From Trypanosoma brucei (taxonomy: Eukaryota): a DNA stretch of 64,000 bases. Numbering within the stretch: position 1 is the first letter of the stretch; each line of letters starts with the position of its first letter. Under the pieces are notes generated by a model. It was given only the letters and a program-made list of their open reading frames with translations, had not been told where the DNA came from and ran no database searches. Below are positions 34,401-56,431 of the stretch, piece by piece. The DNA is taken from positions 2,528,001 through 2,592,000 of the forward strand of contig CM000207.1 of assembly GCA_000002445.1 (NCBI GenBank). Reading direction: 5' to 3'. The position numbers and the translations under genes were made by a program.

Positions 34401-36636
34401 GCATTGAGCCACGCGAGCACCCACTAGAGAAATCGACGCTCCGCCACAGCTGTCGACCGCTATTTCACACGCAGATAAAGCCTGTGTGCGCTGATGACCC
34501 TGACGATGTCAAAAGGGAGGCTTCCGAAAAGTGGATTGAACGGCATTTTTCACGGAGGGGGAAGGAGCTACCGCGGCGAGAGCACTACGAATTGTGGACT
34601 GATGGATCCGTGTCCCTCGGTGAGAAGTCCGGAGCAGCTGCCCTGCTCTATAGAAACAATACGCTTATTTGTGCACCCAAAACCGGAGCAGGGGAACTCT
34701 CATGCAGTTACAGAGCGGAATGCGTATCATTAGAGATAGGACTGCAACGGCTGCTGAAATGGCTTCCGGCATACAGAAGCACACCGAGCAAGTTGTCTAT
34801 CTTCTCTGACTCGCCGTCAATGTTAACAGCACTGCAGACAGGCCCCCTAGCCGTAACGGACCCAATTCTAAGACGACTATGGAGGCTTCTGCTTCAAGTT
34901 CAGAGAAGGAAGTTGCGTATCCGACTGCAATTTGTGTTCGGCCATTGTGGCGTGAAACGGAATGAGGTTTGTGATGAAATGGCCAAAAAGGCCGTAAATT
35001 TACCACAGTTGCGAGACACATAGATCCCCGACATCATTGCTTATGCGAAGCGAGTGCTTAGGTCGGAAGAAGTCCATGAGAACACTCATAGGTTTGGTAT
35101 CACGGGCAACAACTTTCCAACAAAGCATAAAGAAAAACTGACGAGGGAAGAAGAAACGGCACTGGCACGCTTTCGGGTTGGGTCTTCAAGACACTATGGA
35201 TGGATGTTGCGAAAGATCAACCCGAGTGTGCCTCCACAGTGCCGATGGTGCAACCCGCAAAATGCAGAGATAGGGCCAACAATACAAACAGCCCCAACTG
35301 TTGCGACACGCACTCTTCAGAGAACCTCCGAACCGACAAAATGTACGGAATGTGATGCCACATACCAATGCCGCTCGAGTGCTGTAACGCATATGGTAAA
35401 CAAACACGGCTTTGTGCGAGCTGATGCCCTCCGGAGGATCAAATACGGCGATGCAACACCTGCAGTGGATATCCCCCCGGAGCCCCCTCCAGTGGTGCCT
35501 ATCGTCCCTCTACCATCGAGCACACGAGTCCCGATGAGACCGCAGGTACTTCATTGTACCATCTGTGCCTCCAAATTCGCAGTGCCAGGCCGACTATTAC
35601 ACCACCTTAGAACAATACATGGTATAGGCAGCGGTAGTTGCCGCGTGAAAAGGGGGCGAGAGAACGAGGACTCAGTGCAAGGAGATGGTAGAGCCCCAGC
35701 AGCGCCAGTCTCTCAGGATACACGGAAGCTGCCGTTTCAATGTGACCTGTGCGAGGCGAGCTTCGGTACACGCTCTTCCCTGTCACTACACAAGAAATTC
35801 AAACATAAGAGCATAGTGACGGAGGACGGTACCGTAGTGGTGGTGCAATTCCCTCGTAAGCTTGCCCGTGAGGAAAATGTTGACGTCCCGGGGAAAGGCG
35901 AGGTGCAGTGTGGTGTGTGTCAAAAAGTGCTCAGTTGCAGGGACTCCCTCATCCGACACTGTAAGGCTTTCCACAAAGGTGAGGGAGTCGAGCTTAAATG
36001 CAGCAAAAGCACAAAATTGTGTGCCACTGATTCCCCGCATACAAACACATCCATGTTGGTGTGCCCGACATGCGGAAGGCAGTGTGCTAGCAAAACTGGC
36101 CTCACCCTACATCAAAAGAAGATGCACGGTATGAAGGTAGAGCGCGCTGTTACCATCCAACGCGGCGACTTCGAAGAAACGTCGCTGCACTTGATGAGCT
36201 GCCCCTGTTTGAAGGAGTTACGTGTCAGGTTTGCGGTAGAAGGTGAGTGTGTGCAGGATGTATGTTTTTCTAAAAGGCTGGCGCAGTTTCTCATTGCGGT
36301 TGAACGGAACCTGCCGCAGGTGAAGTCCTCACCTAAGGTAACAGTCATACAACCCACTCTCCCTTCTGCAACTTCCCCCCTTATTGCCGAGTGTGGAGCT
36401 AGCAGGAAAAGCACCGGACGCAGGAATAGTCCATACACCCTCAGAGACAGAGAGGGTATGCAGTCAACAAGCAACAGGAACAGAAAGAGGGGGAGAGAAT
36501 AATAAACGAATAACAAAAATCAAAACAAAAGGATTGCTAATTGACATCTTTTGGAGAGTCCGGGTTGGGTGGCTTCTCGCCCCATCTGCTGTATTCCGTT
36601 CAACTGCGGAGCTACAACAAAAATTATAGAGAGTGT
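31499..36636 (+). mobile_element. ingi retrotransposon, degenerate copy. It is 3'-truncated by about 130 bp and joined directly to a 70-bp repeat.
   Basis: Its 5' end (ccctagcgatgccggccacctcaacgtggtgccagg) is homologous to copies A and D. The ORF is split into 31744..33300, 33272..35023 and 35054..36502. The last ingi-homologous bases (ctacaacaaaaattatagag) run straight into gagtgtgttgtgagtgtgcatatacgaatattataataagag. Confidence 0.9.
31744..36502 (+). pseudogene. ingi polyprotein pseudogene. It has a +1 frameshift in a G-run near 33205 and a TGG-to-TAG nonsense change at 35021-35023. The MLLSGDVEENPGP 2A-like start is retained.
   Basis: Alignment by eye against copies A and D: B reads aaaaaagggcggagg where D reads aaaaaaggcggagg, and B reads gacacatagatcc where D reads gacacatggatcc. 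Confidence 0.85.
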
Positions 36637-39302: not shown

Positions 39303-39533
39303 TAATAATGATAATGATAATAATAGAAGAGTGTTGTGAGAGCGTGTACATACGAATATTATATTAAGAGCAGTAATAATAATAATAATAATGATAATAA
39401 TGATAGGAAAGTGTTGTGAGAGTGCGTATATACGAATATAATAATGAGAGCAGTAATGATAATAATAATGATAATGATAGGAGATTGTTGTGAGTGTGTA
39501 TATACTAATATTATAATGAGAACAGCAATAATG
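39303..39533 (+). repeat. 70-bp repeat block (3 units)
   Basis: Three cores are present: agaagagtgttgtgagagcgtgtacatacgaatattatattaagag, ggaaagtgttgtgagagtgcgtatatacgaatataataatgagag and ggagattgttgtgagtgtgtatatactaatattataatgag. Confidence 0.9.
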
Positions 39534-41285: not shown

Positions 41286-42797
41286 ATGATATCATGGCTA
41301 GCGAGGACCGCAATTTTTCTGAGGCTTACGGTGCCAGCGATGCATGCGGCCACAAACCCAGGTGATAACGCCGCAGAGTTCAAGGCGCTTTGCGCAGTCA
41401 TAAAACTAGCGAAAATACAGCCGAGTGACCTGCAGCCTGGGACCGAAGCCGAGAAAGCTCTCAAAGAAATTGAAGTGTTAAACATGTCGGTAGCTGACGA
41501 GAAGTGGCAAAAACAATATGGCGATGGAACAGAAAAGTTTGCTTGGTCAACTTTCGAATCAAAATTAGGAGACACCGACCCCAAAAAACACTGGAAAGAG
41601 AACTGGCAAAACTGGCTTGACACAAAAAAAAGACTGGAAGCCGCAAAAAAAACTGACGAATGGAAACACACCCACCCTGCGCCAGCAAGCTCCGAGGCAA
41701 GGCAAGTAGCATCAAAGCAAATAGCAGCTCTAACAGCGGCAGCGACCAAACTGTACCAAGATTTCAAGACAAAAGCGGACAACCTGAACACAGCTGACAG
41801 AGAGGCAGTAACCTCGGAACTAGCCAAGGCGCTGCACGGAGCAGACAAGGTTACAGCGGAAGGCCAAGTCACACCGCACAAGACGCCCGACGGAGTACGA
41901 AGCGGCACCAGCTGCAACGCCGCAGCTAGCGGCCAGCGCCTGTTAACGGACCTCATGTGCATCTGTGCAGGACAAACACAACTGACAAGCAAAGCGTGCA
42001 CCACGACACCACTCTCAACGGGGTGGACAGGCGGCTTTGGAAACGCTGCCACACAACAAGCGGAACTGGAGGCAAAGTGCGGCACAGGATATCCAGCAGA
42101 TCTAACAGCGGAAAATATAGAGAACGCTGTACATGGCCTCGAAATCTTGGTCGGGCGGCATAGCGGCACCAACAACAAGGGCGGCTACCTCGGCAAAGAC
42201 GCAGGCGCAAATTGCGATGGCACTGACGGCAACATCTGCGCCGACTATACCAACTACTTCAAAGATGCGGCAAACACAGCCGACGCAGAACTACCGTGGG
42301 CGAAACACACGCGACTAGCAGCAACCGCCTTGATAAACAGGGCTAAAAACTTCAGGGCGGCCGAAGGGCTAGCGGAGCGCATTGAAACGATAAAAATACA
42401 GACAGAATCCACTTTCCAACTAACGCAGTTCACATTTCCGACGCAAAAAGCGGAGGCGGCAGAAGAAGAGCTCACCACAAGCAAAAATAAAGACTGCAAT
42501 AATCACAAAACAAACTCAACCTGCACAGAAAATAAATGCAAATGGGAAGGAACAAGTGAAACAGTTGGGGAATGCAAACCTAAAGATGGGGAGAATAAGA
42601 CAAACGCAGCAGGGACAGAAGGAGCTGCAGGAGCAACAAACTCCGAAGCCAAAAAGTGCTCTGAAAAGAAAAAGCAAGAAGACTGCAAAGATGGCTGTAA
42701 GTGGGAGGGAACAGAGTGCAAAGATTCCTCTATTCTAGAAAACAAACAATTTGCCCTGAGTATGGTTTCTTCTGCATTTGTTTCCTTGATTTTCTGA
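41286..42797 (+). CDS. VSG, intact (503 aa). It has a signal peptide and the canonical long GPI signal ...CKDSSILENKQFALSMVSSAFVSLIF*.
   Basis: It is a full ORF. The N-terminus is AIFLRLTVPAMHAATNPGDNAAEFKALCAVIKLAK, and the C-domain carries the CKWEGTSETVGECKPK and CKDGCKWEGTEC motifs. Confidence 0.85.
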   Translation: MISWLARTAIFLRLTVPAMHAATNPGDNAAEFKALCAVIKLAKIQPSDLQPGTEAEKALKEIEVLNMSVADEKWQKQYGDGTEKFAWSTFESKLGDTDPKKHWKENWQNWLDTKKRLEAAKKTDEWKHTHPAPASSEARQVASKQIAALTAAATKLYQDFKTKADNLNTADREAVTSELAKALHGADKVTAEGQVTPHKTPDGVRSGTSCNAAASGQRLLTDLMCICAGQTQLTSKACTTTPLSTGWTGGFGNAATQQAELEAKCGTGYPADLTAENIENAVHGLEILVGRHSGTNNKGGYLGKDAGANCDGTDGNICADYTNYFKDAANTADAELPWAKHTRLAATALINRAKNFRAAEGLAERIETIKIQTESTFQLTQFTFPTQKAEAAEEELTTSKNKDCNNHKTNSTCTENKCKWEGTSETVGECKPKDGENKTNAAGTEGAAGATNSEAKKCSEKKKQEDCKDGCKWEGTECKDSSILENKQFALSMVSSAFVSLIF

Positions 42798-42833
42798 ATT
42801 TTCCACCGCCTTCCTTTAAGAAATTTTGCTATT

Positions 42834-42849
42834 TGATATATTTTGACAC
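42834..42849 (+). promoter_or_regulatory. VSG 3'UTR 16-mer variant (tgatatattttgacac)
   Basis: Motif match, with 1 mismatch. Confidence 0.75.
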
Positions 42850-43440
42850 CTAAAATTTTCCCTGGAAATTTTTTTGTTGGCTGTAAAAAATCTGATTCTG
42901 TGATTTTTTTCTGGAAACTAAAAGAATTTTTTTCAACTATTTTTCTTGAATTTTTTAGGGCTATGTCTTAGTTTTTTTTAATTTCCGTTTCCGCGTTTAG
43001 CGGTTTTTTTGACATTTCTATTTTCGCAACAGCAGTGCCTCAATTTTTTACCCCACTTTCGACTTTCTTTCAATTTTTTGTGTCTTTAGTTTTTTTTAAT
43101 TTTTTTATCTTCACTTTTTTAATTTTTTTTATTTTACATGCCGACAGCAATTTTTTTCGGCAACGAACTTTTTTTTTTTTTGCAGCGGTGGTGTTTCGGG
43201 TTAAGGTGTTGAGGGTTAGGGTTAATTTTCCTCTTCCTGCTAATTATTTTTTTACCCCACAGCTCCGTTCTGTATTGCTCCGCTTTTTTTTAATTTTTAT
43301 TCTTTTAGTGACTCAGCGGCTATTTTTTATTTGCAGCAGCAGTGTCAACTCGATTTATTATGTTTTTTTAATTTTTTAAATTTTCTTAATTTTTTTATTC
43401 GTTTTTTTAATTTTTTTCTTAAACAGTGGCGCATGACCTA
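42850..43440 (+). repeat. T-rich block with a repeated ttttttaatttttttt motif and degenerate telomeric hexamers (gggttaaggtgttgagggttagggttaatttt). It is homologous to 54210-54520.
   Basis: TTAGGG-like units sit at about 43196-43232. The motif ggttagggttaattttcctct is shared with 54375-54398. The 3'UTR start is also shared (tgatatatttt[g/a]acacctaaaat). Confidence 0.7.
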
Positions 43441-43799
43441 TGGCGCTGCGAGCCGTTTTCTTTTTACACTGGCACGGGGAGTTTTGGTGCTCGAAACGAT
43501 TTGCTTTTTAAGAGACGGTAACGAAAAAATCTTAATATTTGGAAGTGGCAGAATATGGAGTTCGGAAGATAAAGCCAGCCGACATGGCAGCCTGGACTGG
43601 TTGCGGCACGCCACAACAACCTGGCCAAAGCAATCGGATGCGGCGAGCAGTTAACTTGTGCGTCAGCAGGCCAATGCGTGCACATTGCCATGCCGCAACA
43701 AATCCGGCAGCAGATGTAAAGCACCTTAATGCAGGGCTCCATAATCACCACGGGTATAAATTCACCGCAAAAACCAAGCAACAAGCCAACAGTAGAGGA

Positions 43800-44190
43800 A
43801 CAGAATAAATGTAAAACTCCAGCAAACAAAACAGCAGACGGGTGTGCGGCTATTGAATATGACTATGACTATGATGAAACTTACAAAGAATGCAAACCTA
43901 AATCAGGAAAAGAAAACACATCAACAGGAACAGGGGAGACAAGTACCGGGGTAGACTGCAGTAAACACCAAACCAAGCAAGCCTGTGAAGCTGAAAACAA
44001 GGATGTAAAACCTGGTCAGAAAGCAGTATCTGGATGTATTGAAGATAAGTGTAAAGATTTATTTTTTCTCGTCAGTAAGAATTTTGCTCTGATGGCTGCT
44101 TCTTTTGTGAGCTTGGTACTATTCAAGGATTTTGAATTTTTAAATTTGTTATTTAGAGAGAATTTGATATATTTCAACACCTCTAGATGA
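43800..44190 (+). pseudogene. VSG C-terminal-domain-only fragment (...CKPKSGKENTSTGTGETSTGVDCSKHQTKQACEAENKD...CIEDKCKDLFFLVSKNFALMAASFVSLVLF). The stop is lost, giving a read-through extension.
   Basis: ORF 43729..44190. There is no N-terminal domain or signal peptide, and no 70-bp repeat upstream. The 16-mer follows. Confidence 0.7.
44165..44180 (+). promoter_or_regulatory. VSG 3'UTR 16-mer variant (tgatatatttcaacac)
   Basis: Motif match. Confidence 0.7.
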
Positions 44191-44329
44191 TGATGTGCAA
44201 ATTTTAAAAACACAAAATTATAAAATTATGGTTTCAAATTGGTCCATGGTCGTATCGTACTAATTTTATAAGAATATTAAAAGATTTATAGTGTAATTTG
44301 CTTTATTTTTCTTATTTTATGAACGTTAG

Positions 44330-44412
44330 TTAGGGTTATAATGGTGAGAGTAATAATGATAAAGATAGAGAGTGTTTTAAGTGTGTAAATACGAATATTA
44401 TAATAAAAGTGG
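44330..44412 (+). repeat. 70-bp repeat (one unit)
   Basis: gataaagatagagagtgttttaagtgtgtaaatacgaatattataataaaag. Confidence 0.8.
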
Positions 44413-46177
44413 TGGTGAAGAATAAATGAACAGAAGAAGTGAACCTCCTCAAAAATGGCAAAGGTACAATAAAAGTAAGTGAATTGATGTGAGGGTGAGA
44501 AAGAGAGAAAAACTGGAAAGAGAAAACAAGGAGTTTTATTAAAAGAATGGGGAGCGAAAGAGATAAATGAGGAAGTGAGGAAAGGGAAAAAGAACGATGG
44601 AATATACTGAGTTTTAAACACAATCATATTGATTGGCATGATTATACAAAGGGGTATGGAAAGTGAAATGAGGGAGAGAGTATGTGTACCGTGGAGAAAA
44701 CAAATATAGTTTCTACGTTATATGCAGGAACAGTGAGAGAAGAGAAAATATAAGAAAAGAAGATGAGGAGTGAAAGAACTGGAGGAGCTGTAGAGTAGCA
44801 CAGAGGTTAATAATACAAGAATATGTTGCGCTCCTCATTCCCAGACAAATATGGGCTGGTGCTGCTGTGCATATGGTTAAGATTGTAGTTTGTCATCTGA
44901 TTTCAGATCCTAATGTCTACCTATCAATAACAAATAGGTGAAAGGGATTGGATAAATGTGATGTAATGTTAAAGTTTTCTTATCATTTTTACTAGTAAAA
45001 GCCAACATTAGAGTCAGAAACAATATGGTATTTTTCGGAGGAAGATTTTAATACTGAGATTACAAATCTATTTCTGTGGAAAGCAAAAGAATTATTAAAA
45101 TCGGTAAATGTTTAAAAAAGTATGTATGAATCAACCGGGATGCTTTATTGAAGTGAAGAGAATTAATAGTGATACTCTTTCATTTCCATATTGATGTGCT
45201 TTTCAGACATGGAGACTTCTCAAAGAGAAAATAATTAGTATAAAAGTGGTCTCTGAGCAAAACTAACGGGTTGTATTGACGATTATAAGGCAGCGATGAA
45301 GTTACATTCGGGAAGAAAAGCACTGACTATTAAGCATCTGACAGAGTTATTTACGCAAAAAGCGTGGCTAAAACACAAAGCCAATCTTATTCACGAACAA
45401 CAAAAACGCCTCCTTGTTATAGCACCACCATTTAATGGAAGATTTCCGACAGTAGCGTGTGACAAAAAACATAAGATTCAAATTTTTAGGCATAGAGATG
45501 TGTGAAGTTTTCTTACTTGTAACAGAGGCTCAGACTCGCGGCGGCACAGAGTATATTCAATATATATATATATAGGGAACGATGAAGACGATCAAGACGG
45601 AAATATCAGACTTCCTTGTGAAAAAATAGGAAATCAAAACTATAACGGTGTTTGTATTTACAAATTTTTATAAACGTCAAAAACACTCGCAACACGATTG
45701 AAAAAGCGGAGGTGGGAAGCCGGAAAGATTAATTTAAATAAACTGAACGCAGGGCTAGAACCATCGATTCAAGCGCTCACGACAGACAAAATCTCAATAG
45801 AAAAATTTGCGGTTACTTAGCACCATGCCGCCGTGAGCAGATGAACCGTTCCTAATTTACGAGTGTAGCCTTGCCACCGCCGAACAGATCGCAGTAGGAA
45901 ATAAGCGGTAGACAGTCACAGCGCAGGCGGGACCAACGCCAACCCAGGCGATATTTAATCGCAAGGTTAGGCAAACACACACCCTGCAAGTCAACAAAAC
46001 TCCTCATATTTGTCATCTCTTCGTGAATTTTACTGATTACTTTTGTAAATGAGCGGCAAAGATTTTGTTGTAAAAACTAAGCTGCTTTAGGCAGGGTTCC
46101 TGCAATAGCACAGGGAACTGAAGAGATTTATAAGATTATAGCGGTTACAGAAACGCGATACACAAATTAATCAACCC

Positions 46178-47727
46178 ATGTCCGCCGGAACCGTCGTTTT
46201 AATCTACATACTTCTAATAACTGCGTCACAAACGCGAACGACGTCAGCTGCAGAAAGCATCGGTCTGAAAAACACGGTGCGGCAACCCATTTGCAAGCTA
46301 TCAGAAGAACTAGCAACTCTTCCAGGGTTTGCACTTGACCAAGCGGTGCAGGCGCTCAAAGCTGCACAAACCTTCGACGTGGCTTCAAAGCGGGCGGCCA
46401 TAGACGCAGCGATCAACATAGGGACACCTATAGCCGAAAAGACGACCCTTTTAAAAGATTATTACGCCAGGCTAGCGGAAAGGGCATATAGCAAACTGCT
46501 AGCAACAGGCGTAAAAACGCAATTCACAGCCGCGGCGAAAACAGCTTACCTGAAAGGAAGACTGGACGACTATCTAGCGCTGCTTGCGCAGTCGACGGCA
46601 ACATCAAACAATGCTTGCTTACTGCCCGGCACAACCAACAGCGACGCAGCCACTTACACACACGGGAAAACAATTGGGGAAGCCGCGTGCAAGCTAACGG
46701 CGCCAGATCTAGCCACAAAAACCAGCACGACAACAGAGCTAACAAAGGACGGATACAAAAACCTAATTGAGGGAGCGCCGGCAGGCGACAAGCACCAACC
46801 GGTCGCTGGCGGCAACGGCAACAAGTGCAAACTGCTAAGCGGGACCACCAGCGGCTATGCAAATGGAATCAGTCTAGCAGGCCAGCCGAAAGTTATGGCC
46901 GGTTATATCACGATACCAACCACGGCAACAGGGATAACGCTAGAAACACAAACGACACTCAAGGACTCAAACAGTGCCGCCACCGCACCGTGGTATGAAG
47001 CCTTCGAAGCAACAAACGCATTAACCACAGCGACCGCCGTAGAATTCCGCAACGAGACTGGTGACTTACACAGCAAAACGGCGCTTAAGGAAACTGTAAA
47101 AGCGCTCTTTCTAGCAGACCCCAAAGCAACTGACACTGACATAACAACGGCGATAGCCAAGATATTTGGTGATAAAAGCGACGACAAGTGCACAGAACTT
47201 GAAAATGCGATAGACAACACATAAATCCCAGGGACAGTAACGAAACAATAAGATACGACGAGACTCAGCTCTATAACAAGCGTGGCAACGCTAAGCGGTA
47301 TTCTTAGTCATTACGACCTAAAAATATCCCAAAACCTGGCAGACATAAGAAAAAAATTGGCGATCCTAAACAAAAAGAAACAAGAAAAAAAACGGCAGAC
47401 TGCGAACAGATAGAAAAAGTAGCGGAATGCAAAGGAAAGAAACCACTATGCAAATGGACTAAAGAAACTGAGGAAACAGGAAAACGCTGCAAATTGAATA
47501 AAACCAAAGTAGAACAAGAAATTCCAGAAGGAACTGGAGCTCAAACTGGTAAAAAGTGCTTTGATCACACAAAAAAAAAGGATTGTGAAGCTGAGAATAC
47601 GGGACTGACCATAGGTTCTCATAATAAATGTGGCTGTATCAGAGGCAAGTGAAAGTATTCCAGTTTCCTGATCAACAAGCAATTCGCCCTGATGGCTGCT
47701 GCTTTTATGAGTTTGGTAATTTTTTGA
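46178..47727 (+). pseudogene. VSG pseudogene. The ORF is 348 aa up to the stop at 47224. The C-terminal domain is frameshifted and contains internal stops. The GPI signal ...FLINKQFALMAAAFMSLVIF* is retained.
   Basis: The signal peptide is VVLIYILLITASQT. The C-domain reads CKGKKPLCKWTKETEETGKRCKLNK, with stop codons around 47400-47650. Confidence 0.75.
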
Positions 47728-47815
47728 AGATTTCTTGCTCAACTTTATTATGTCTCATGAATTTTTTCCTCTTAAGAGAGAGTATTTGTAAGAATTTTCT
47801 GAAGTTTATGAAATG

Positions 47816-47831
47816 TGATATACTTTAACAC
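47816..47831 (+). promoter_or_regulatory. VSG 3'UTR 16-mer variant (tgatatactttaacac)
   Basis: Motif match. Confidence 0.75.
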
Positions 47832-47934
47832 TTTTCAATTGAAATATAAAAATTAGTTAAAAAATGAAAAATATGAAAACTTGGTATGTCTATGATCTAT
47901 AGGTGTGACGTATTATGGTGACAAGGTATAGACC

Positions 47935-48075
47935 GTGAGTGCACTTATAATATGGTTGACTGTGTTAGTTCTATAGGTATTAGTTATGGTTATAATAGTA
48001 AAAACATTGATAGTTGCAATGATAGTACTGATATTAGGGTGCTATCAGTCTGTATCTACTAATATTGTAATAACA
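47935..48075 (+). repeat. Possible highly degenerate 70-bp-repeat remnant
   Basis: It has TAT/GTT-rich units (tataatatggttgactgtgttagttctataggtattagttatggttataatag...ctgtatctactaatattgtaataacag) in the expected cassette position. The match to the consensus is weak. Confidence 0.35.
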
Positions 48076-49062
48076 GTTTGGATGAAGACTAAATGAAAAG
48101 CGGAATAAAAGCACTTAACCCCATTGTAATGGTTGTATGTAGTGAGTAAGTGAGAGAGAATGGCTGGGAGTCACGATAAATAATATTGTGAAACAAATGG
48201 AAAAGGGGGAGCAGATTATAAGCAATCTCAAGCACAGAAGTGAGTAATGGCACTTACATTGCAGAATAAGGAGGTTGCATTCATTCACAGACATAATACA
48301 GCGACTGCAACATATGTATCTTTACTTATGAACATGGCGATAACAAAAGGAGATGTTTCTGTCTAAAGAAAAAGGGAAAAAAGCACGAAAAGAAAAAGAA
48401 ACTGCACATATGAACTCATGGAGGATCTTTGATAAGTAAAGGGAACCAATGGAAAAACGCTGAAAATTCGGTATTGGCATACTGGAGATACCCTAAGACC
48501 TTCTAAGGAACGAGCAGTCGATATGATAGCGGTTTATAAAATGCAGGCAACAACGCGTATTAACCAAGAAAGAGGTTACAAGGAGGTCAATTTTGGGAGC
48601 CCAGATGTACAACTCTTATGTGGAAGCTCCACAAACAGAAACACGAGGGTCGAAATCACAAACCAAAAGTTAATCACATATAGGATAAGTAGAAGATTAA
48701 CCTGGTCATTCCAGGCCAAACTGACACTTCCAAAATGTCAGATGACAGAGAGCAATGACGACAAAAGAGTTCAAAGTTTTATATATAAAAGATAATAACC
48801 TGTTATTGTCTGTGTGGAAACTGCATCTTAACTAAATGTTTTTTACGCCACTGTTTAGCAGATACGATGAATTAAAATTTTCCCTTTTCCCCACTACACA
48901 TTGCATTAATAAACAAGAAAAAACAGACACACATAACTGTAAATCGTGTGGCCGTTGTCTCTGCAGCGTCTGTTGCTAATATAAAAAGAAAACAACCAAA
49001 AATAGGTGGATAAGTTCAGCCAATAGTTCATGGTTCCAATATAAAAAATATCCACTCGAACC

Positions 49063-50793
49063 GTGGTGACGTCGGAGTACTGTGGCTATCAATATGTGAC
49101 TATGGAAGCTAAGATAAACTTTGTTGAAATTCAACACCGTTTCCTGCCGCTTCAGCTAATACTTAAACAACAAATGCTTCTTGTCCAAAATAATTTAGCT
49201 AAACAGCGAACCGACTGGTACAATGACAATGAAGGACGGGAAAGCCTAAGGACGCGATACACAATAGGGATGCTGTGTGCTTCGGCATTACTTTACAGCA
49301 GACACGTGGAAGCAGCTGCAGGAGATGCGGTGAAGCACGACAACGTGAAGGCGATATGCGACGTAGCTGCCGATGGGCAGAAACTAATGGCGACGCTGCT
49401 GAAAAACATGCAAGACCTCGGGAGAGAAGCCAGAATTGCGCAGCTGCGGTCACTGCGGCTGCAGGTGTACGACGCTGCAACGAATCAAGGGCAAACGCCA
49501 AAGCACACCACGGCGGTATGGTCCATGCTAACTGAACAGATCGAACGAGCGAGCACCATAGTAGCTGGAACAGCAGCTGCAACGGCAATTAAAGGAGCAA
49601 GGGATGTCGGCCGACTCCAAGGAGCGATCACAGAGTTCCTGGAGACCCAAGCTGACGCATCCGCCGCTACCAAAGGATGCTTACAGGCGTCGAATGGTGG
49701 AACAAACATCATCAACGATAAAACACAGCTGTACTCAACGTACGCAAACTGTAAACTCGACTTGGCGGAACCGACGGCAGGAGCCACAGCTCTGACGGTG
49801 ATCACTAAAACAGGGATACAAGGCAAACTCAGAAACGGCCTTAGCCACGGCGCCACAACAGACTCTAGCGCGAATACGGACTGCGACGCTGGAATGGGAA
49901 CAGGAACGTACAAACTCACCTATGGCACCACAGGGCACAGCGTAACGGGTCATGTTCCAAAGCTAGCAGGTGGCCTATTGACAGTAGACACCAACGGGTT
50001 CACGGTGCCGGAGCTCGCCACAAAAGTAGCCGCATCAACTGCGACCGAGTATCTAGGGGCAGCGGTGACAGCGGCAGAGAACCTAACTCCGTTCATCGAA
50101 AGCGCAGACATAAACACAATAGGAACTCTGAAATACGCGGCCATATTCAAAGACAGCGCACGCCACTATTTCCTAAACAAAAGCAAGACAGAAGCACAAG
50201 AGGACAACAGTCTGCCCAGCCTAATAGAAGCAGCCTTCGACGATGACGCTGGGGTTAAGAAAGACATGTACGAAACCGCCAGTAACTACCCAATCCCTGA
50301 GGAACTGAGACCTAGTGTTGCAGAAGACTAACTCGGGAAGATAAACGATGCCCACAACCTTATGCGGCTGTACTTTCACTTCAAGAACAGCAACACTAAA
50401 ACTCTGCTGGACAAGATTAAAAAACTGCAGGATGCAGAAAATTTAAAAAAAGAAACCCCAAATCAGAATAAAACAAGAAATAATGTAATACCAAGGGGAA
50501 GGACAAAAAAGAAGATTGTGAAAAACTAGCTGAAGAAGGATGCGTTTTTAACCCAAAATGCGAAAAGGAAAAAAGTGCACATTGAGTGAAGAATGCAAAC
50601 AGAAAGTACAAAAAGAGGAGCCTCAGCTGCTACAACAGAGAAATGCAAAGGAAAATTGAAAACCGACTGCACCAAGGCCCCTGGTCGCAAAAAGGGAAGG
50701 AAAATATGAAAAAAACTCCGTTTCGTCAATAAGAAATTGGCTCTAATGGTTTCTTTTTCTCTAGTTTTTTATTTTAAGGATTATAAAATTTAA
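49063..50793 (+). pseudogene. VSG pseudogene. ORF 49063..50331 has a plausible true start near 49270 (MLCASALLYSRHVEAAAGDAVKHDNVKAICDV). The C-terminal domain carries frameshifts and stops, and the GPI-signal region is degenerate (FVNKKLALMVSFSLVFYF).
   Basis: The N-domain is VSG-like, and there is a degraded C-domain (EKCKGKLKTDCTKAP). The 16-mer lies downstream. Confidence 0.7.
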
Positions 50794-50837
50794 AAGGTTT
50801 TTTCTCCATTTATAAAATTATAGAATTTACTAAAATT

Positions 50838-50853
50838 TTATATATTTTAACAC
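50838..50853 (+). promoter_or_regulatory. VSG 3'UTR 16-mer variant (ttttatatattttaacac)
   Basis: Motif match. Confidence 0.7.
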
Positions 50854-51016
50854 TATTATAAGACTTTTGAGAAATCTGTAATTTTTGAAAAATATAAAAA
50901 CATGAAAAATTTTGTATGAAAGCGGGATAATGGTGTAAAATATTATATGGATTTTTATTAAAAAACTAGTGGTATTATGAAAATTCTAGATTTTGTTTAT
51001 TTAATTTGATATAATA

Positions 51017-51098
51017 GTAATTTCAATAATAATAATAAAAATGAAATGAGAGTGTTATGAGTGTGCATATACTAATATTAAAATAAGAGTAGTGTACC
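51017..51098 (+). repeat. 70-bp repeat (one unit)
   Basis: aataataataataaaaatgaaatgagagtgttatgagtgtgcatatactaatattaaaataagag. Confidence 0.8.
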
Positions 51099-52726
51099 TT
51101 TATCACAGTAAATGCAAAAGAGTAGAAATTAAACGAACTGCAACTGAGGAGTGAGTGCGTGGAAGTAAGTGGGAGAGAACTAGAAATATTGTTAAAGGAA
51201 AAGTATAGAGGGGGCGAAATATGTACATGCTCAAAAAAAACATAACTATGGGTGCCATCATACACAAGGAGGTGATAAATGGGAAAGTGTAGAAAAGTAA
51301 AGAGTCAAGTGGACAGGCCAAAGGTGTTACCGAAGAAAATACAAAGGAGGAGTGAAAGTTGGAACTGGCTAAAACCACCATCGCCAAAATGTTTTTAAAA
51401 ACTATTTGAATAATACATTTTTTTCGCTCAAAGCACTGTTATGAATAAAAAGCAATCTAATATAGAGAATGCAGCCGACTACAGCTGTAGGAGCGATCTA
51501 AAAGTACTTCACTCATAAAAAGTAAAAAATTGGATATTCAGCAATAAGGAAAGCGGCTGATGAGTGAGGAAACTTTCTAAAGCGATAATAGTAGCATCAA
51601 ATTTAGAGAGAGTAGCAGAAACCGGAAGCACGCATCGGAATCAAAAAAGACAGAACTGAAACTGTTATTACATCACAAGATAGTGTAGGACTAGACAGCA
51701 TTAGCAGCCCCTATACCCATATAAATTGTAAAACTTATTAAGAGAAGACAATGTTTTCGATGCTTTTTGGATATAAGCATGTAAATATTTTTTAAAACCT
51801 CAAAGGGTAAATTTAAAAGATTATGTACGAATTTACTAACAGCAGTATAATTGAATCTAAATTAAAAAACATATACAAACAAATAGCTGACACTTTGCAT
51901 AAACATTTACTCAAATTAAAGCTTTCTGTATTGTCATGTTTAAGAGAGAACAATGGTAGTGAAGGGAATGGAACTGAGAGAAGCGTCTAGGATGTGCTTG
52001 AAATCCACTGGGCGCAGTAAAAGAGTTACCGAAACTTATTATTTAACATAAAACTGCCGATATTTTTAGTTGAAAGAGCAGCAAGGCAAGCATCTATGTT
52101 CGCCCTGAATTTGTAGGAGAGTTCAAAAAGGGATATAGCATGAGAAGTCAAAAGAAGACAAAGAAAAACTTCCGATCATGCCAGCAAACAACCTAAATAT
52201 TATCCAACTCAAAACAAATGAGCCAGAGCAGCTCGTAACCAAACCAATGCTAGGAGACACAATTACAAAGCTCGTTCATTGAGGCCAGAAAAAGCATTAC
52301 AGTGGAAACCCCGGAGTAAGCATGGGATATTCTGACATGGTCAAACAATTCGAAGCGCACAAACTACTACAACCTGCAGCGTCATCCTTAACGATCCAAT
52401 TGGCTTCGTGGAAATGTCATGCAAGCAGATTTCCTGGTAGGACCGGACGTAAGCAGCGTGTAAAACAATGTCATATTTAGCATAACCAGGTATAACATCC
52501 GATGCAGTCTATTATAAGCAGTTTTTAAAAAAAATGTTTGTAGTGGAAAGTCTATAAAATCCCCGAAAAAAATGCACAATTATGTATAACACCAGAGCGC
52601 AGGCCACCATCGAACGCCCACTGTCAACAGCTGTATAGACAGCTGTTCCGCAAGCCAACCCCAACAGAAAACCCGTACAGTGACGCCACATGAAACTTAT
52701 TGTATACGAACTAGCAAAAAATAGGA

Positions 52727-54150
52727 ATGAAGATCGTACATGTATGCATACATCTTCTACTCGCAACAGCCATAAGCGCTCAAGGATCAATCCATGACGC
52801 AACAGACACCCCTAAAACAGCCTGCCAAGCGAAGGCACAGCTCAAAGCCATGGCTACAAAGTTGGAAGGAGCAGTCAAGACACAAGCTGACCAGATCGCT
52901 GCGGCTTTGCCAAAGTTTTTGCAGCTCTATGCAGCAGCCAGCACCGAAGTACTAACTGGAACCCAGAAACTCATGCTACTGCTGCCAGCCGCCGCAGCAA
53001 ATTTACAAGCAGCTTCAAACAATCTACAGCAATCCCAGACGACGATTCTAGAAGCATCTAGAGCCCTAACAGAACTGGCAGGAGTGCAACAAATGGTAGC
53101 CGAGGCAGGCGCAAGGGAAATAAACGGAAAAAACGCGGCCGTGGCAGCAACTTGGATAGGCGCCGCCGGTATGCAAATAAAGCTGAAAGATCTCAGCGGA
53201 AAACATCCGGAGTGCACTGAGCCATCTCCAAGCACATCAGGTCCCAAGCAGCCGAAAACACTAGTACACAGCACCTATCCAATAACGGTTATACACCTAG
53301 CAGCGGCAGACGACATACAGGCAGGCCAAAACGGTAACGGGCCACGAATCTGCGGACACTCAAGCACAACCCCGGCTCTACAGTGTCAGCTTGACGCACA
53401 AACCAACACAGGCAACCTTCTGCTAACGCCAGGCAAGCTGACAAAGCCATTACAAGCAAACTACCAGCCAGCATCACCGTCAGAAAAGGCGTACAAAGCA
53501 GCGCCAGCAAGAGCAGCCGGCCTGATGCCTCCGCAAAAAACAGTAGAGGAATTGCTAGCCACCCTGCACACAGCAGAAGCTGCAGCAGCGACGCTAACAT
53601 TTAAAGCAAGCGATATTGACCCAGCGCAACTCATTAACGACGCGGAGACGGATCAAGCCCTACTTCAAATACTAAAACCCGGCGAAAAACGGAGCAAAAT
53701 AGGAGACTACACATAGCAAATAAACGAACTCAAAAAAAACTATACGCAACCGACCAAAGTGACAACGCTGAAAAACTCAATAAGGCTTTAGAGTTGACAA
53801 AGACGACGGCGGAAAGCAGTAGCGAGCACAAAACTGAGGCCTTAAATGCTGTAACAGACTTCACTCAACTGGCCGCCTCAACAACACACAATATGTTGGC
53901 CGCAACGAAAAAAAACGCAGCAAGCGAAAAAAGTACACCAAAGAAGAACGAGTATAGCTGCGATGAAAAAGAAAAGGACAAATGCGAAGGCGATTGTCAA
54001 TGGGATAAAAAAGAGGGAAAGTGCAAACCCAAAAGTGGAGAAGAGGAAGTGAAAGCAGGGGATGATGGAAAAACAAACACAAACACCACAGAAAGCAATT
54101 CGTTTCTTATTACCAAGGACCATCTATTGCTTGCATTTTTGCTTTTCTAA
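52727..54150 (+). pseudogene. VSG pseudogene. The ORF is 329 aa up to the TAG at 53716, and the C-terminal domain plus GPI signal (CEGDCQWDKKEGKCKPK...SFLITKDHLLLAFLLF*) lie in another frame.
   Basis: The signal peptide is VCIHLLLATAISAQG. The C-domain ORF is 53794..54150. Confidence 0.75.
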
Positions 54151-54193
54151 ACAAATTTTCCCCCTCAACTTTCTTAAAGAATTATTGCTACTG

Positions 54194-54209
54194 TGATATA
54201 TTTTAACAC
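54194..54209 (+). promoter_or_regulatory. VSG 3'UTR canonical 16-mer (tgatatattttaacac)
   Basis: Exact match. Confidence 0.85.
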
Positions 54210-54520
54210 CTAAAATCGACCGAGAAATTGTTATTGTTGGCTTCCTGCGCGTGTAAATTTTTTTGTTTCTAAATATTTTTCTCTTTTTTTCTGTTTTTTG
54301 TCTAGCAAAAAAAAGGTAAGAAGGAGGTTATGGAGGGTTTTCCTTGCTCAGAATCAGTCTTAGGGGTATGGTTATTTGGGCTAGGGTTAATTTTCCTCTA
54401 ACTGTTTTTTTTATTTTTTTATTTTTTTATTTAATTGTTTTTTGTTTTTTCTTTTTTTCACTTTTTTTTACAATACGTTGCTAATTTTTTAATTTTTTAA
54501 AAGTGATGCGTACGTCGTTT
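54210..54520 (+). repeat. T-rich block with degenerate telomeric hexamers (cttaggggtatggttatttgggctagggttaattttcctct), homologous to 42850-43440
   Basis: It shares the motifs ttttttatttttttatttttttatttaatt and agggttaattttcctct with the other block. Confidence 0.7.
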
Positions 54521-55054
54521 ATCTCCATTTATATGAAATCAATTGAAAATAGCGTTATTTGTTATTTTCTAACAAGTCAATATTTTGTTTTTTGCATTTG
54601 TTTCAGGAAGATTCAAAAAACCTAACATTGTAAAATGTACCATAAAAAACGAAAGTGAAATAAAACGCATTATGCTTCTGAGTTTGATCTTATTACAAAT
54701 TTTGGGTATTCATTGTACATTTTTTAATTACATCACAAACTTGTTGAAAAATAAAATTTAAGCTGCCATATCTATCGGTTACTAAACGTTTCTGTGGTTT
54801 TCAAACACCTTCGTCACAACTTGCATATATGGCTTCCATAAAACTGTGATGATTTAAGTCTACTGAGAAACTGTATAGAAGAATCACCGGTAAATCTATG
54901 ATCTAAGCAGCGCTCAGTAGCTGTTCGTAACATTAAAGATAACAATTAATCTGTTTCCGATTGTACACAAAAAGGTCAAGAACAGGCAAAACATGGTATC
55001 AGCGGCTGTAGTAGCTTTTTTTAACGCTTCCGACAGCCAGATCAGTGAACACTA

Positions 55055-56431
55055 ATGCTCGGGCCTTTTCAGTTTTTTTTCGAAACCTACAGGATTACTT
55101 TGAAACAAGTAACAAAAGAGGTGTTCAGCGATCTACCGCAAAAGCCTTTAACAGAAGAACTAAACGACTTGCAAATGGTAACTTTACAGGGCAAAAATTT
55201 CACAAACGCAACGCACGGCGAGTTCTCAACACCAATTGCCTGGGCCAAGAAAAAAAGCGAACTCTTAAGAGCAAAACCTGGCACACCCACACACAAACAG
55301 CTAAAACGTTACAGCGAAACGAAGCTAACAGCGGTCATAAACGACAGGATTATGCCCCTACAACAAGAAGCCAAAACAGTATCAGACAAATATGACAAGG
55401 CCAACAGCGACGTAAACCAAGCAGTGATCGATGCCAACACGTTCCTGAAAGCAGCCCGCAACGGCGCAAACGATACAGCAGACGACGCACAAGCCGCATT
55501 CGACACGAGGGACAAAGCATGCGCAACGGCAGACGGCAGCTCAGCGGGCAAATCGATAGTGTCGGACGTAGCATGCCCCTGCAGCGGAACCGGTGCATCA
55601 AACCTATGCTACAACGGCAACAGCAATACAGACTACGCCAGCGGTGCTACGGCAGCAGAGGCGCTAACAGCATGGTGTGCAGTAAAAGCGACATGCAAAG
55701 CGCAGGGGCAACAGCAGGTCCCAACGGGCGCCCAAATCACCGCAACTATTTCGGCACTCGAAAGACACCTTGGAGCGGACGCCACGGGCGTCGATGCCAC
55801 GACAATACTCGGAGGCGGGACTTCAGCTAACTGCAACGGTGGAACGGGCGTGGCAAACGCGTGCGTCGACTACAAGAAACGGATGTCAGGGCACGGCATA
55901 GCTGGGATCCCATGGGTTCAGAATTTGCTGCAAGCAGCGCAAGCCTTACAAAGAGGCAGACAAGCGACTGCAGAGTTGAAAGAAAGTGCAGCCGCTATGA
56001 AATCGATCACAGCAAGTGCATGGAGACTACACGATATGCTAGCAGCCAACGAGATGATAAACACTGAAGCCAAGCAAGGAGAACAAAAAGTAAGTGATAA
56101 AAAAGTAGACGAGTGCATTTCAGCAGGAGACGACACCGCTAAATGCAATTCGGCCAAAGGAAAGGGATGTACTTTTAACGAAAAAGGAGAAGAGGGAGAA
56201 AAGTGTGAGTTGAAAAAGGAAGTAATAGAATCTCTAAAAGAAGAAAACCAAGAAGGCAAAGATGGGAAGAAAGAGGAGAAATGTGCAGGGAAGGAGCAAG
56301 GAGACTGCGAGAAAGCTACTTGCTGCAAATGTAAAAATAATGCTTGTAAAAATTCCAGTATTCTTGTAAATAATAAATTTACATTGAGTGATGCTGCCTA
56401 TATGGGTTTGGTGGCATTTTTAGAATTCTAA
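55055..56431 (+). CDS. VSG (458-aa ORF) with a canonical GPI-signal C-terminus (SILVNNKFTLSDAAYMGLVAFLEF*). The N-terminus lacks a recognisable signal peptide, so it is probably 5'-degenerate.
   Basis: The C-domain (CKCKNNACKNSS) and N-domain body (ACPCSGTGASNLCYNGN) are VSG-like. The ORF begins MLGPFQFFFETYRITLKQV, which is not hydrophobic. A short hydrophobic ORF (MVSAAVVAFFNAS) lies out of frame just upstream, at about 54993. No 70-bp repeat lies upstream. Confidence 0.6.
   Translation: MLGPFQFFFETYRITLKQVTKEVFSDLPQKPLTEELNDLQMVTLQGKNFTNATHGEFSTPIAWAKKKSELLRAKPGTPTHKQLKRYSETKLTAVINDRIMPLQQEAKTVSDKYDKANSDVNQAVIDANTFLKAARNGANDTADDAQAAFDTRDKACATADGSSAGKSIVSDVACPCSGTGASNLCYNGNSNTDYASGATAAEALTAWCAVKATCKAQGQQQVPTGAQITATISALERHLGADATGVDATTILGGGTSANCNGGTGVANACVDYKKRMSGHGIAGIPWVQNLLQAAQALQRGRQATAELKESAAAMKSITASAWRLHDMLAANEMINTEAKQGEQKVSDKKVDECISAGDDTAKCNSAKGKGCTFNEKGEEGEKCELKKEVIESLKEENQEGKDGKKEEKCAGKEQGDCEKATCCKCKNNACKNSSILVNNKFTLSDAAYMGLVAFLEF

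What the first reader, a model, noticed from the sequence alone, without database searches (positions are those of the whole stretch)
42834..43440. Two homologous T-rich blocks with degenerate TTAGGG repeats immediately 3' of VSGs, possible footprints of former telomeric positions
Downstream of the intact VSG 41286-42797, and again downstream of the 52727-54150 VSG, the 3'UTR 16-mer is followed by the same unusual flank. It contains reiterated ttttttaattttttt motifs and a cluster of telomere-like hexamers (gggttaaggtgttgagggttagggttaattttcctct, also cttaggggtatggttatttgggctagggttaattttcctct). No other cassette in the window has this. Telomere-adjacent VSGs in expression sites and minichromosomes are followed by sequence that decays into TTAGGG repeats. 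These two cassettes may therefore have been copied from telomeric donors into the array, or they mark ancient chromosome-healing events.
Basis: partly seen in the sequence, partly recalled or inferred. Interest (0 to 1): 0.65.

Follow-up and report, generated by a model that had tools for sequence, protein, structure and literature searches.

The report
Telomere-type VSG downstream flanks inside an array
Two surface-antigen (VSG) gene cassettes inside a Trypanosoma brucei gene array are followed by the T-rich, telomere-repeat-like spacer that normally lies between a chromosome-end VSG and the telomere; this is a modest clue to how these arrays are built from former chromosome ends.

Summary
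The window is a T. brucei TREU927 VSG array. Only two of about ten cassettes lack the usual 70-bp repeats after the 3'UTR 16-mer. They have a T-rich block instead: A at 42850-43440 and B at 54210-54500. Each block holds a G-strand TTAGGG-like island that exceeds every composition-matched shuffle, and both share the 18-mer TAGGGTTAATTTTCCTCT.

"Homologous" overstates the A/B relation. Only about 45 nt after the 16-mer and the island align. The rest matches no better than shuffled T-rich DNA.

The blocks do belong to a real family:
- A aligns strongly (z=13) with a 1.1-kb flank in a T. b. equiperdum array, behind an unrelated VSG.
- A also aligns (z=4.3) with a T. equiperdum contig that starts in 70-bp repeats and ends in TTAGGG-like repeats.

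Papers report TTAGGG-like repeats 3' of telomere-proximal VSGs, and a T2AG3-like tract behind VSG221 that seeds new telomeres.

The islands are internal, conserved parts of the flank, not decayed terminal repeats. In the two cases where the next VSG can be read clearly (A and the equiperdum locus), the flank abuts a 5'-truncated VSG. After B the next VSG simply has no 70-bp repeats upstream.

Best reading: these are interstitial telomere-type VSG flanks marking junctions of a once-telomeric cassette. I could not compare them directly with expression-site or minichromosome sequences. It is a new member of a known kind, of modest interest.

The parts
41286..42797 (+). VSG A: intact B-type VSG of 503 aa, the gene that carries flank A
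   Evidence: Pfam VSG_B 4e-78 and Trypan_glycop_C 2e-24. It is 100% identical to T. b. brucei TREU927 XP_827743.1.
42834..42849 (+). 3'UTR 16-mer of VSG A (TGATATATTTTGACAC)
   Evidence: Pattern search, one mismatch to the consensus.
42850..43440 (+). Flank A: T-rich block of telomere type
   Evidence: T fraction 0.48-0.54 and AT skew down to -0.52. Smith-Waterman score 84 against the L002 flank, versus 30 +/- 4 for shuffles (z = 13), and z = 4.3 against the L001 tail. Blastn gives two collinear blocks with L002, E = 1e-26 and 2e-31.
42850..42975 (+). Proximal module shared by A, B, L001 and L002 (CTAAAAT...TGTAAAAAATCTGATTCTGTGATTTTTTTCTGGAAACTAAAAG...), ending in a single TTAGGG at 42955-42960
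   Evidence: Four-way alignment; TTAGGG search.
43092..43135 (+). Short tandem array of T6-8AA units (the 'ttttttaattttttt' motif)
   Evidence: Tandem Repeats Finder, periods 8-9 and 23; direct repeats D1, D2, D4.
43195..43224 (+). T2AG3-like island of flank A (TTCGGGTTAAGGTGTTGAGGGTTAGGGTTA), G-strand orientation, 346 nt after the 16-mer
   Evidence: Local alignment to (TTAGGG)12 scores 19, against a shuffle maximum of 12. It aligns with L002 16311-16342 and with the window B island.
43217..43234 (+). 18-mer TAGGGTTAATTTTCCTCT, identical in flank B
   Evidence: L002 has GGGTTATTTTTCCTCT at the aligned position.
43363..43422 (+). Second array of T6-8AA units at the distal end of flank A
   Evidence: Tandem Repeats Finder.
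43441..44190 (+). 5'-truncated VSG abutting flank A. The ORF 43729-44190 holds a complete VSG C-terminal domain. Its own 16-mer is at 44165-44180 and 70-bp repeats follow at 44366-44404.
   Evidence: Pfam Trypan_glycop_C 7.5e-15, profile positions 1-104 of 104. 16-mer. 70-bp repeat map shows none between 39517 and 44366.
52727..54150 (+). VSG B: frameshifted VSG pseudogene carrying flank B. The N-terminal ORF is not recognised by Pfam.
   Evidence: ORFs 52727-53716 and 53794-54150. No Pfam VSG hit. The C-terminus ends in a VSG-type GPI signal.
54194..54209 (+). 3'UTR 16-mer of VSG B (TGATATATTTTAACAC)
   Evidence: Exact match.
54210..54500 (+). Flank B: shorter, more divergent T-rich block
   Evidence: T fraction 0.52-0.58. 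It shares the proximal ~45 nt and the island with A, L001 and L002. Its overall score against A or L002 is not above shuffles (z = 0.6 and 1.9).
54326..54389 (+). T2AG3-like island of flank B (GGTTATGGAGGGTT...TTAGGGGTATGGTTATTTGGGCTAGGGTTA), 117 nt after the 16-mer. The 18-mer TAGGGTTAATTTTCCTCT lies at 54382-54399.
   Evidence: Local alignment to (TTAGGG)12 scores 21, against a shuffle maximum of 14. 17-mer search.
54501..56431 (+). About 0.5 kb of unassigned AT-rich DNA, then a VSG pseudogene (ORF 55055-56431). No 70-bp repeats lie upstream of it.
   Evidence: Pfam VSG_B matches only profile positions 95-351, plus the C-terminal domain. No 70-bp repeat between 51084 and about 56700. No similarity to any other part of the window.

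Best explanation
Both blocks are interstitial copies of the telomere-type VSG 3' flank. This is a non-coding, T-rich spacer with short G-strand T2AG3-like islands. At chromosome ends it lies between the VSG poly(A) region and the terminal (TTAGGG)n tract.

Shown:
- The blocks replace the 16-mer-to-70-bp-repeat spacer of ordinary array cassettes.
- They belong to a flank family found behind unrelated VSGs in three genomes.
- One family member runs into TTAGGG-like repeats at a contig end.
- The hexamer islands exceed chance and sit at conserved positions inside the flank.
- Flank A, and the equiperdum flank L002, end abruptly at a 5'-truncated VSG. After flank B comes about 0.5 kb of unassigned DNA and a VSG pseudogene. 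In all three cases there are no 70-bp repeats in between.

Inferred:
- A cassette that was once next to a telomere (70-bp repeats, VSG, T-rich flank) became joined at a non-homologous point to a broken VSG unit. One route is that a chromosome end lost its terminal repeats, eroded into the flank, and was extended by break-induced copying or capture of distal array DNA. The other is that a break in the array was repaired by copying from a telomeric donor through its flank, and the repair ended by end joining.
- At a telomere, the islands act as reserve seeds for de novo telomere addition, as shown experimentally behind VSG221. The T tracts probably provide the downstream pyrimidine signal for VSG mRNA 3'-end formation.
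- In the array the blocks are probably relics with no current function.
For: - Only these two cassettes lack downstream 70-bp repeats and are T-rich.
- Hexamer enrichment and (TTAGGG)n alignment scores exceed all or nearly all shuffles, in G-strand orientation only.
- Flank A against the T. b. equiperdum L002 flank: blastn E = 1e-26 and 2e-31, Smith-Waterman z = 13. Against the T. equiperdum L001 tail: z = 4.3.
- L001 starts in a 70-bp repeat and ends in TAGGGGGGTAGGTTAGTTAGGTTAGT.
- Islands lie at +106 to +132 in all four sequences. A second island, followed by TTTTCCTCT, is present in A, B and L002.
- The VSGs carrying these flanks are unrelated, so the flank goes with the site, not the gene.
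- A VSG 3' fragment follows the flank in A and in L002, at non-homologous junctions. In B the next VSG lacks its 70-bp repeats.
[quoted passage not shown] VSG-to-telomere distance is 200-1590 nt (PMC2567434). The T2AG3-like tract behind VSG221 is the site of de novo telomere seeding (PMC1807955; PMC3610638).
Against: - No direct comparison with a verified telomeric flank (BES TAR clones, AJ271641, minichromosome reads) was possible.
- L001 is only inferred to be telomeric, from its contig end.
- In the small sample available, the flank is not rare in arrays: 2 of about 10 cassettes in the window and 1 of 3-4 in L002. It could therefore be an ordinary array spacer class.
- No terminal-repeat remnant lies at either distal junction.
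- Flank B is only weakly tied to the family (z = 0.6-1.9).
- The perfect repeat content is tiny: at most AGGGTTAGGGTTA, about 2.2 units.
- The L002 flank also holds C-strand hexamers, which the simple model does not explain.
Confidence: 0.6

Rival explanations
1. Array-native spacer class. T-rich flanks with GGGTTA-like islands are simply a second, old type of intergenic spacer that spreads within arrays by segmental duplication. They have no telomeric history, and the resemblance to telomere repeats is a conserved motif with some other role or none.
For: Three of about 14 array cassettes sampled carry the flank. A and L002 are only about 66% identical, so they are old paralogues. The islands are internal and conserved, not terminal. 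No terminal repeats lie at the junctions.
Against: Hexamers in the window are strictly in the G-strand orientation pointing away from the VSG, as at a telomere. The L001 family member is bounded by 70-bp repeats and TTAGGG-like repeats at a contig end. Published work places such repeats 3' of telomere-proximal VSGs. No 70-bp repeats follow any of the flanks, and the next VSG is truncated after A and L002. This looks like a rearrangement junction, not a regular spacer.
Confidence: 0.2
2. In-situ healed break. The hexamer islands are remnants of telomere repeats that telomerase added at a break right here, and they later decayed.
For: T2AG3-like DNA seeds and marks de novo telomeres in T. brucei.
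Against: The islands sit 346 nt (A) and 117 nt (B) into the flank and are followed by 215 and 110 nt of further T-rich flank. The same island, with the same TTTTCCTCT continuation, is present in the paralogous L002 flank. It was therefore inherited as part of the flank, not added at this locus. There are at most about 2 perfect units.
Confidence: 0.07
3. Chance. Low-complexity T-rich DNA happens to contain a few GGGTTA words.
For: A and B are not alignable overall beyond composition (z = 0.6). TTAGGG is not enriched in the window as a whole: 18 found against 24.9 expected.
Against: Local hexamer counts and (TTAGGG)12 alignment scores exceed composition-matched shuffles. The shared 18-mer exceeds shuffles. 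There is strong homology to flanks in two other genomes.
Confidence: 0.03

Closest known systems
'TTAGGG-like' repeat region 3' of telomere-proximal VSG genes (Aline & Stuart 1989, Exp Parasitol 68:57, as cited by Hall et al. 2013, PMC3708902)
   Same: It starts right after the VSG 3'UTR, contains degenerate TTAGGG-like units in the G-strand orientation, and has a length within the 200-1590 nt VSG-to-telomere range reported for expression sites (PMC2567434).
   Different: Here it is interstitial. It is followed by VSG sequence and more array instead of the terminal repeat tract. I could not read the 1989 paper, so the conserved organisation it describes could not be compared element by element.
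T2AG3-like tract downstream of VSG221 in expression site BES1 (AJ271641 nt 211-322; Glover et al. 2007 PMC1807955 and 2013 PMC3610638)
   Same: It is a degenerate T2AG3-type tract a few hundred nt behind a VSG. In the window the islands lie 117 and 346 nt after the 16-mer.
   Different: The VSG221 tract is 106 bp (46 bp of T1-2AG1-6 plus 10.5 degenerate repeats) and is proven to seed telomeres. The window islands are 30 and 64 nt with about 2 perfect units, and are untested. Sequence identity to AJ271641 could not be checked.
Canonical array VSG cassette (70-bp repeats, VSG, 3'UTR 16-mer, next 70-bp repeats)
   Same: The upstream half of both cassettes is canonical: 70-bp repeats at 39327-39517 and 51047-51084, about 1.6-1.8 kb of upstream region, the VSG, then the 3'UTR with its 16-mer.
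   Different: The downstream half is replaced by the T-rich block. The next VSG-coding sequence follows with no 70-bp repeats, and after flank A it is 5'-truncated.
Interstitial telomeric sequences left by chromosome fusion or healing in other eukaryotes
   Same: It is telomere-like sequence at an internal position, and it probably marks a past rearrangement of a chromosome end.
   Different: There is no tract of perfect repeats and no head-to-head arrangement. The hexamers are part of a subtelomeric spacer, not residual terminal repeats.

Membership tests
Telomere-type VSG 3' flank (TTAGGG-like / T2AG3-like region behind telomere-proximal VSGs) | Lies immediately 3' of the VSG 3'UTR 16-mer, in place of 70-bp repeats | tested here: met
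   16-mers at 42834-42849 and 54194-54209 are followed directly by the blocks. There are no 70-bp repeats until 44366 and about 56700.
Telomere-type VSG 3' flank (TTAGGG-like / T2AG3-like region behind telomere-proximal VSGs) | Contains degenerate TTAGGG-like repeats, G-strand reading away from the VSG, beyond chance | tested here: met
   A has 10 hexamer positions (0 of 500 shuffles reach it); B has 5 (p = 0.026). Smith-Waterman scores against (TTAGGG)12 are 19 and 21, against shuffle maxima of 12 and 14. No C-strand hexamers.
Telomere-type VSG 3' flank (TTAGGG-like / T2AG3-like region behind telomere-proximal VSGs) | Sequence similarity to the flank of a verified telomere-proximal VSG | tested here: inconclusive
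   A and L002 are homologous to the tail of L001 (z = 4.3 and 6.2). L001 ends in TTAGGG-like repeats at a contig end, but it is not a verified telomere. B against L001 gives z = 1.4.
Telomere-type VSG 3' flank (TTAGGG-like / T2AG3-like region behind telomere-proximal VSGs) | Continues into the terminal (TTAGGG)n tract | tested here: not met
   Flank A ends at a VSG 3' fragment (43441-44190). Flank B ends at 0.5 kb of AT-rich DNA followed by a VSG pseudogene. The array continues to the end of the window. This is the feature whose absence makes the copies interstitial relics, not working telomeric flanks.
Telomere-type VSG 3' flank (TTAGGG-like / T2AG3-like region behind telomere-proximal VSGs) | Length compatible with the VSG-to-telomere spacing of 200-1590 nt | tested here: met
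   From the stop codon the flanks measure about 640 nt (A) and about 350 nt (B). L002 is about 1200 nt. The range comes from PMC2567434.
Telomere-type VSG 3' flank (TTAGGG-like / T2AG3-like region behind telomere-proximal VSGs) | The island can seed de novo telomere addition | not testable with these tools
   This is known only for the VSG221 tract. Testing it needs an induced break distal to the island.
Canonical array cassette spacer | 70-bp repeat(s) within about 150-250 bp downstream of the 16-mer | tested here: not met
   The 70-bp core map and the flank listing show this for eight other cassettes but not for these two.
Interstitial telomeric sequence from fusion or in-situ healing | A tract of terminal-type repeats located at the rearrangement junction | tested here: not met
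   The islands are internal to the flank and inherited with it. There are at most about 2.2 perfect units, and none lie at the distal junctions.

The most novel reading that the evidence does not exclude
Telomere-type flanks are kept in arrays because they are useful. An array VSG that carries one, such as the intact VSG at 41286-42797, would have expression-site-like homology on both sides (70-bp repeats upstream, T-rich/T2AG3-like flank downstream) and so be a privileged donor. Alternatively, a break distal to the island could be healed by telomerase at the island, turning an internal VSG into a ready-made telomere-proximal VSG in one step. The islands would then be latent telomere seeds that shape which archive genes are activated early.
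Probability: 0.12. Interest if true: 0.6.

Novelty: new member of a known kind. Interest (0 to 1): 0.33.

Why it matters
If the reading is right, these blocks are datable scars. They would show that VSG arrays grow or are repaired by incorporating cassettes that once sat next to a telomere. They also give a simple sequence marker (16-mer, then CTAAAAT..., a T-rich spacer and GGGTTA(A/T)TTTTCCTCT) for finding such events genome-wide. That would help reconstruct traffic between telomeric and internal VSG pools. It would also allow a test of whether array genes with this flank are activated differently. The flank itself and its telomere-seeding island are already known from telomeric sites, so the gain is incremental.

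Tried and rejected
- Exact-protein look-ups of VSG A in the contig collection found nothing (window translation and P0001). P0010 also gave nothing.
- A protein search with the C-terminal domain alone returned no hits.
- A profile search with 19 VSGs added only one usable locus, L002.
- A metagenome scan for GGGTTAWTTTTCCTCT returned more than 120 loci. None carries the VSG 16-mer, so these are chance matches to a 16-mer in a huge collection.
- A scan of prokaryote genome contigs for the 16-mer plus CTAAAA found nothing.
- An Rfam scan of 42000-55500 found nothing.
- The global MAFFT alignment of A and B misplaced the shared island and was discarded in favour of local alignments.
- A regular expression for tandem T1-2AG1-6 units was too strict and not specific, so I dropped it.
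- I tested whether the DNA after each flank is homologous between the window and L002, or to other parts of the window. It is not, so the junctions are independent.
- I tested whether the L002 cassette is an orthologue of VSG A. It is not.
- The TTAGGG at 44330 is part of the conserved lead-in to the 70-bp repeats and is not telomere-related.
- Marcello & Barry 2007 could not be retrieved under the two ids I tried (DOI 10.1101/gr.6421207, and PMC1950903 recalled from memory). I did not try to retrieve Aline & Stuart 1989 or the 2005 genome paper. I therefore cannot say whether interstitial copies of this flank have already been described.

Full report
**What the window is.** The window is a subtelomeric VSG array of Trypanosoma brucei brucei TREU927. 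The ORF 41286-42797 carries the Pfam VSG_B and VSG C-terminal domains. It is 100% identical to the annotated TREU927 protein XP_827743.1 on a 3.06-Mb record. Other ORFs are A- or B-type VSGs and pseudogenes, plus ingi-type retroposons. Ten copies of the VSG 3'UTR 16-mer lie on the + strand, against 0.29 expected by chance.

**Checking the observation.**
- I listed 700 nt after each 16-mer and mapped the 70-bp repeat cores. Ordinary cassettes run from the 16-mer into (TAA)n-rich 70-bp repeats within about 150-250 bp.
- Two cassettes are different. After the 16-mers at 42834-42849 and 54194-54209 come T-rich blocks (T fraction 0.5-0.58, AT skew -0.35 to -0.52). These are the only such stretches in the 64 kb.
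- The quoted hexamer strings are present.
- TTAGGG is not enriched in the window as a whole: 18 found against 24.9 expected. It is strongly enriched locally.
- Block A has 10 positions matching a permutation of TTAGGG on the + strand. The mean for 500 dinucleotide-preserving shuffles is 0.73 and none reaches 10. Block B has 5, against a mean of 1.14 (p = 0.026).
- The best local alignments to (TTAGGG)12 score 19 and 21, against shuffle maxima of 12 and 14. Neither block has a C-strand hexamer.
- The T6-8AA motif forms short tandem arrays.

After the 16-mer, A and B as wholes are no more similar than shuffled T-rich DNA: Smith-Waterman score 30 against 28 +/- 3.4 (z = 0.6). What they demonstrably share is about 45 nt directly after the 16-mer (CTAAAAT...TTGTTGGCT) and the hexamer island with its continuation. 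That continuation includes an identical 18-mer, TAGGGTTAATTTTCCTCT, against a shuffle maximum of 15. Also, the '52727-54150 VSG' is a frameshifted pseudogene. Its N-terminal ORF is not recognised by the Pfam VSG models or by BLASTP against neighbouring VSGs.

**Related sequences from elsewhere.** No trypanosome DNA collection can be searched with these tools. Two homologues of VSG A could be traced to contigs.

L001 is a 3.9-kb T. equiperdum contig.
- It begins inside a 70-bp repeat and carries an intact VSG with its 16-mer.
- It continues CTAAAAATTCGG...CTGATTGTCTAGAAATTTTTTCTGGAAAGTAAAG... and breaks off in TAGGGGGGTAGGTTAGTTAGGTTAGT about 150 nt after the 16-mer.
- A telomere-proximal cassette in a short-read assembly would be expected to look like this.

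L002 is 20.8 kb of an array on a 2.44-Mb T. b. equiperdum chromosome, about 235 kb from its end.
- One of its three 16-mer-bearing cassettes has a 1.1-kb T-rich flank.
- Flank A aligns to this flank in two collinear blocks, with blastn E = 1e-26 and 2e-31 at about 66% identity. The Smith-Waterman score is 84 against 30 +/- 4 for shuffles (z = 13).
- The L001 tail aligns to L002 (z = 6.2) and to A (z = 4.3).

The VSGs in front of these flanks are unrelated. The flank is therefore a property of the site, not of the gene.

**Anatomy of the family.**
- A four-way alignment shows a shared proximal module. It ends about 106-132 nt after the 16-mer in a first TTAGGG-like island: a single TTAGGG in A, TTAGGGTTAGG in L002, the contig-terminal repeats in L001, and GGTTATGGAGGGTT in B.
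- A second island of about three GGGTTA-like units is followed by (A/T)TTTTCCTCT. It lies at +346 in A, +686 in L002, and next to the first island in B.
- In A and L002 the alignment continues past this island (TGCTAATTATTTTT...CCGTTCTG.ATTG...CAGCGGCTATTTT).
- The hexamers are therefore internal, inherited parts of the flank. They are not a terminal tract that decayed in place, and more T-rich flank follows them.

**The distal junctions.**
- Flank A ends at 43440. It is followed by a 5'-truncated VSG, whose ORF 43729-44190 holds a complete C-terminal domain. That fragment has its own 16-mer, and only then do 70-bp repeats appear.
- Flank B is followed by 0.5 kb of unassigned AT-rich DNA and a VSG pseudogene. 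There are no 70-bp repeats upstream of it.
- The L002 flank also ends at a VSG 3' fragment.
- The junction regions are not homologous to one another, so these are independent events of one kind.
- None of the junctions carries hexamers.

**What is known.**
- Hall et al. [quoted passage not shown]
- Hertz-Fowler et al. 2008 measured 200-1590 nt between the VSG and the telomere repeats in 17 expression-site clones (PMC2567434).
- Glover et al. 2007 describe a 106-bp T2AG3-like tract behind VSG221. After the telomere was cut off, all mapped healing events occurred in that tract (PMC1807955). This was confirmed in 2013 (PMC3610638).
- These papers supply the identity of the element and an experimentally supported function in its telomeric setting.

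**Best explanation and how it works.** The blocks are interstitial copies of the telomere-type VSG 3' flank.
- The anatomy, the family membership and the rearrangement-type junctions are shown.
- The history is inferred: a cassette once next to a telomere became joined, without homology, to a broken VSG unit. One route is erosion of a chromosome end into the flank, followed by extension through break-induced copying or capture of array DNA. This would explain the variable flank lengths of about 300, 600 and 1100 nt and the absence of terminal repeats. The other route is repair of an array break by copying a telomeric donor through its flank. I cannot separate these two routes.
- The function is also inferred from established knowledge. 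At a telomere the islands are reserve telomere seeds, and the T tracts probably supply the downstream pyrimidine signal that trypanosome polyadenylation depends on. In the array they are probably relics.
- Confidence is about 0.6. The main weakness is that no verified telomeric flank could be aligned. The flank is also not rare in the few array cassettes sampled (3 of about 14), which keeps an array-native spacer class alive as a rival (about 0.2).
- In-situ healing (0.07) and chance (0.03) are disfavoured.

**Novelty and verdict.** The element type and its seeding role are known from telomeric sites. These are additional copies at internal positions. In the open-access library I found no description of such interstitial copies. 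The key archive paper (Marcello & Barry 2007) could not be retrieved under the two ids I tried. I did not try to retrieve Aline & Stuart 1989 or the 2005 genome paper. I rate it a new member of a known kind, interest about 0.33.

The most novel reading not excluded is that such flanks make certain array VSGs privileged donors or latent telomere-seeding sites (probability about 0.12).

Noticed in passing
window 44315-44340 (also about 56690, 47980, 29850, 26410): A conserved lead-in to the 70-bp repeats of ordinary cassettes, TATGAA..TTAGTTAGGGTTATAAT, contains a TTAGGG. It accounts for several + strand TTAGGG hits about 150-200 nt after 16-mers. It is unrelated to the T-rich flanks.
   Followed up: partly
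Only the downstream ORF 53794-54150 looks VSG-like (GPI signal SNSFLITKDHLLLAFLLF). It may be a very divergent or atypical VSG-like gene.
   Followed up: partly
L002 15980-15995, 16447-16460, 16633-16645: The T. b. equiperdum flank carries C-strand hexamers (CCCTAACCCT, CCTTAACCCTT, AACCCTAACC) embedded in the same T-rich strand as its G-strand islands: 14 positions against a shuffle mean of 1.3. The simple telomere-flank model does not explain them.
   Followed up: no
window 41286-42797: VSG A (XP_827743.1) has a cluster mate at 90% identity or more in strain Lister 427, 'VSG 475' (AGH61039.1). The gene is therefore conserved between strains, and its flank could be compared there.
   Followed up: no
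window 42866-42928: An imperfect inverted repeat (27-nt arms, 74% complementary, 9-nt gap) lies within the proximal module conserved in A, L001 and L002. Its significance is unknown.
   Followed up: no
window 11821-16401 (-), 31744-36502 (+), 59566-60189 (-): ingi-type non-LTR retroposons (endonuclease, reverse transcriptase, RNase H and C2H2 zinc-finger ORFs) are interspersed in the array. An ingi-like zinc-finger ORF also lies right after the VSG fragment that follows the L002 flank (L002 17530-18117, - strand).
   Followed up: no
window 54501-54992: About 0.5 kb of AT-rich sequence between flank B and the next VSG pseudogene has no similarity to anything else in the window. It contains one CCTAAC word at 54621. 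Its origin is unknown.
   Followed up: partly
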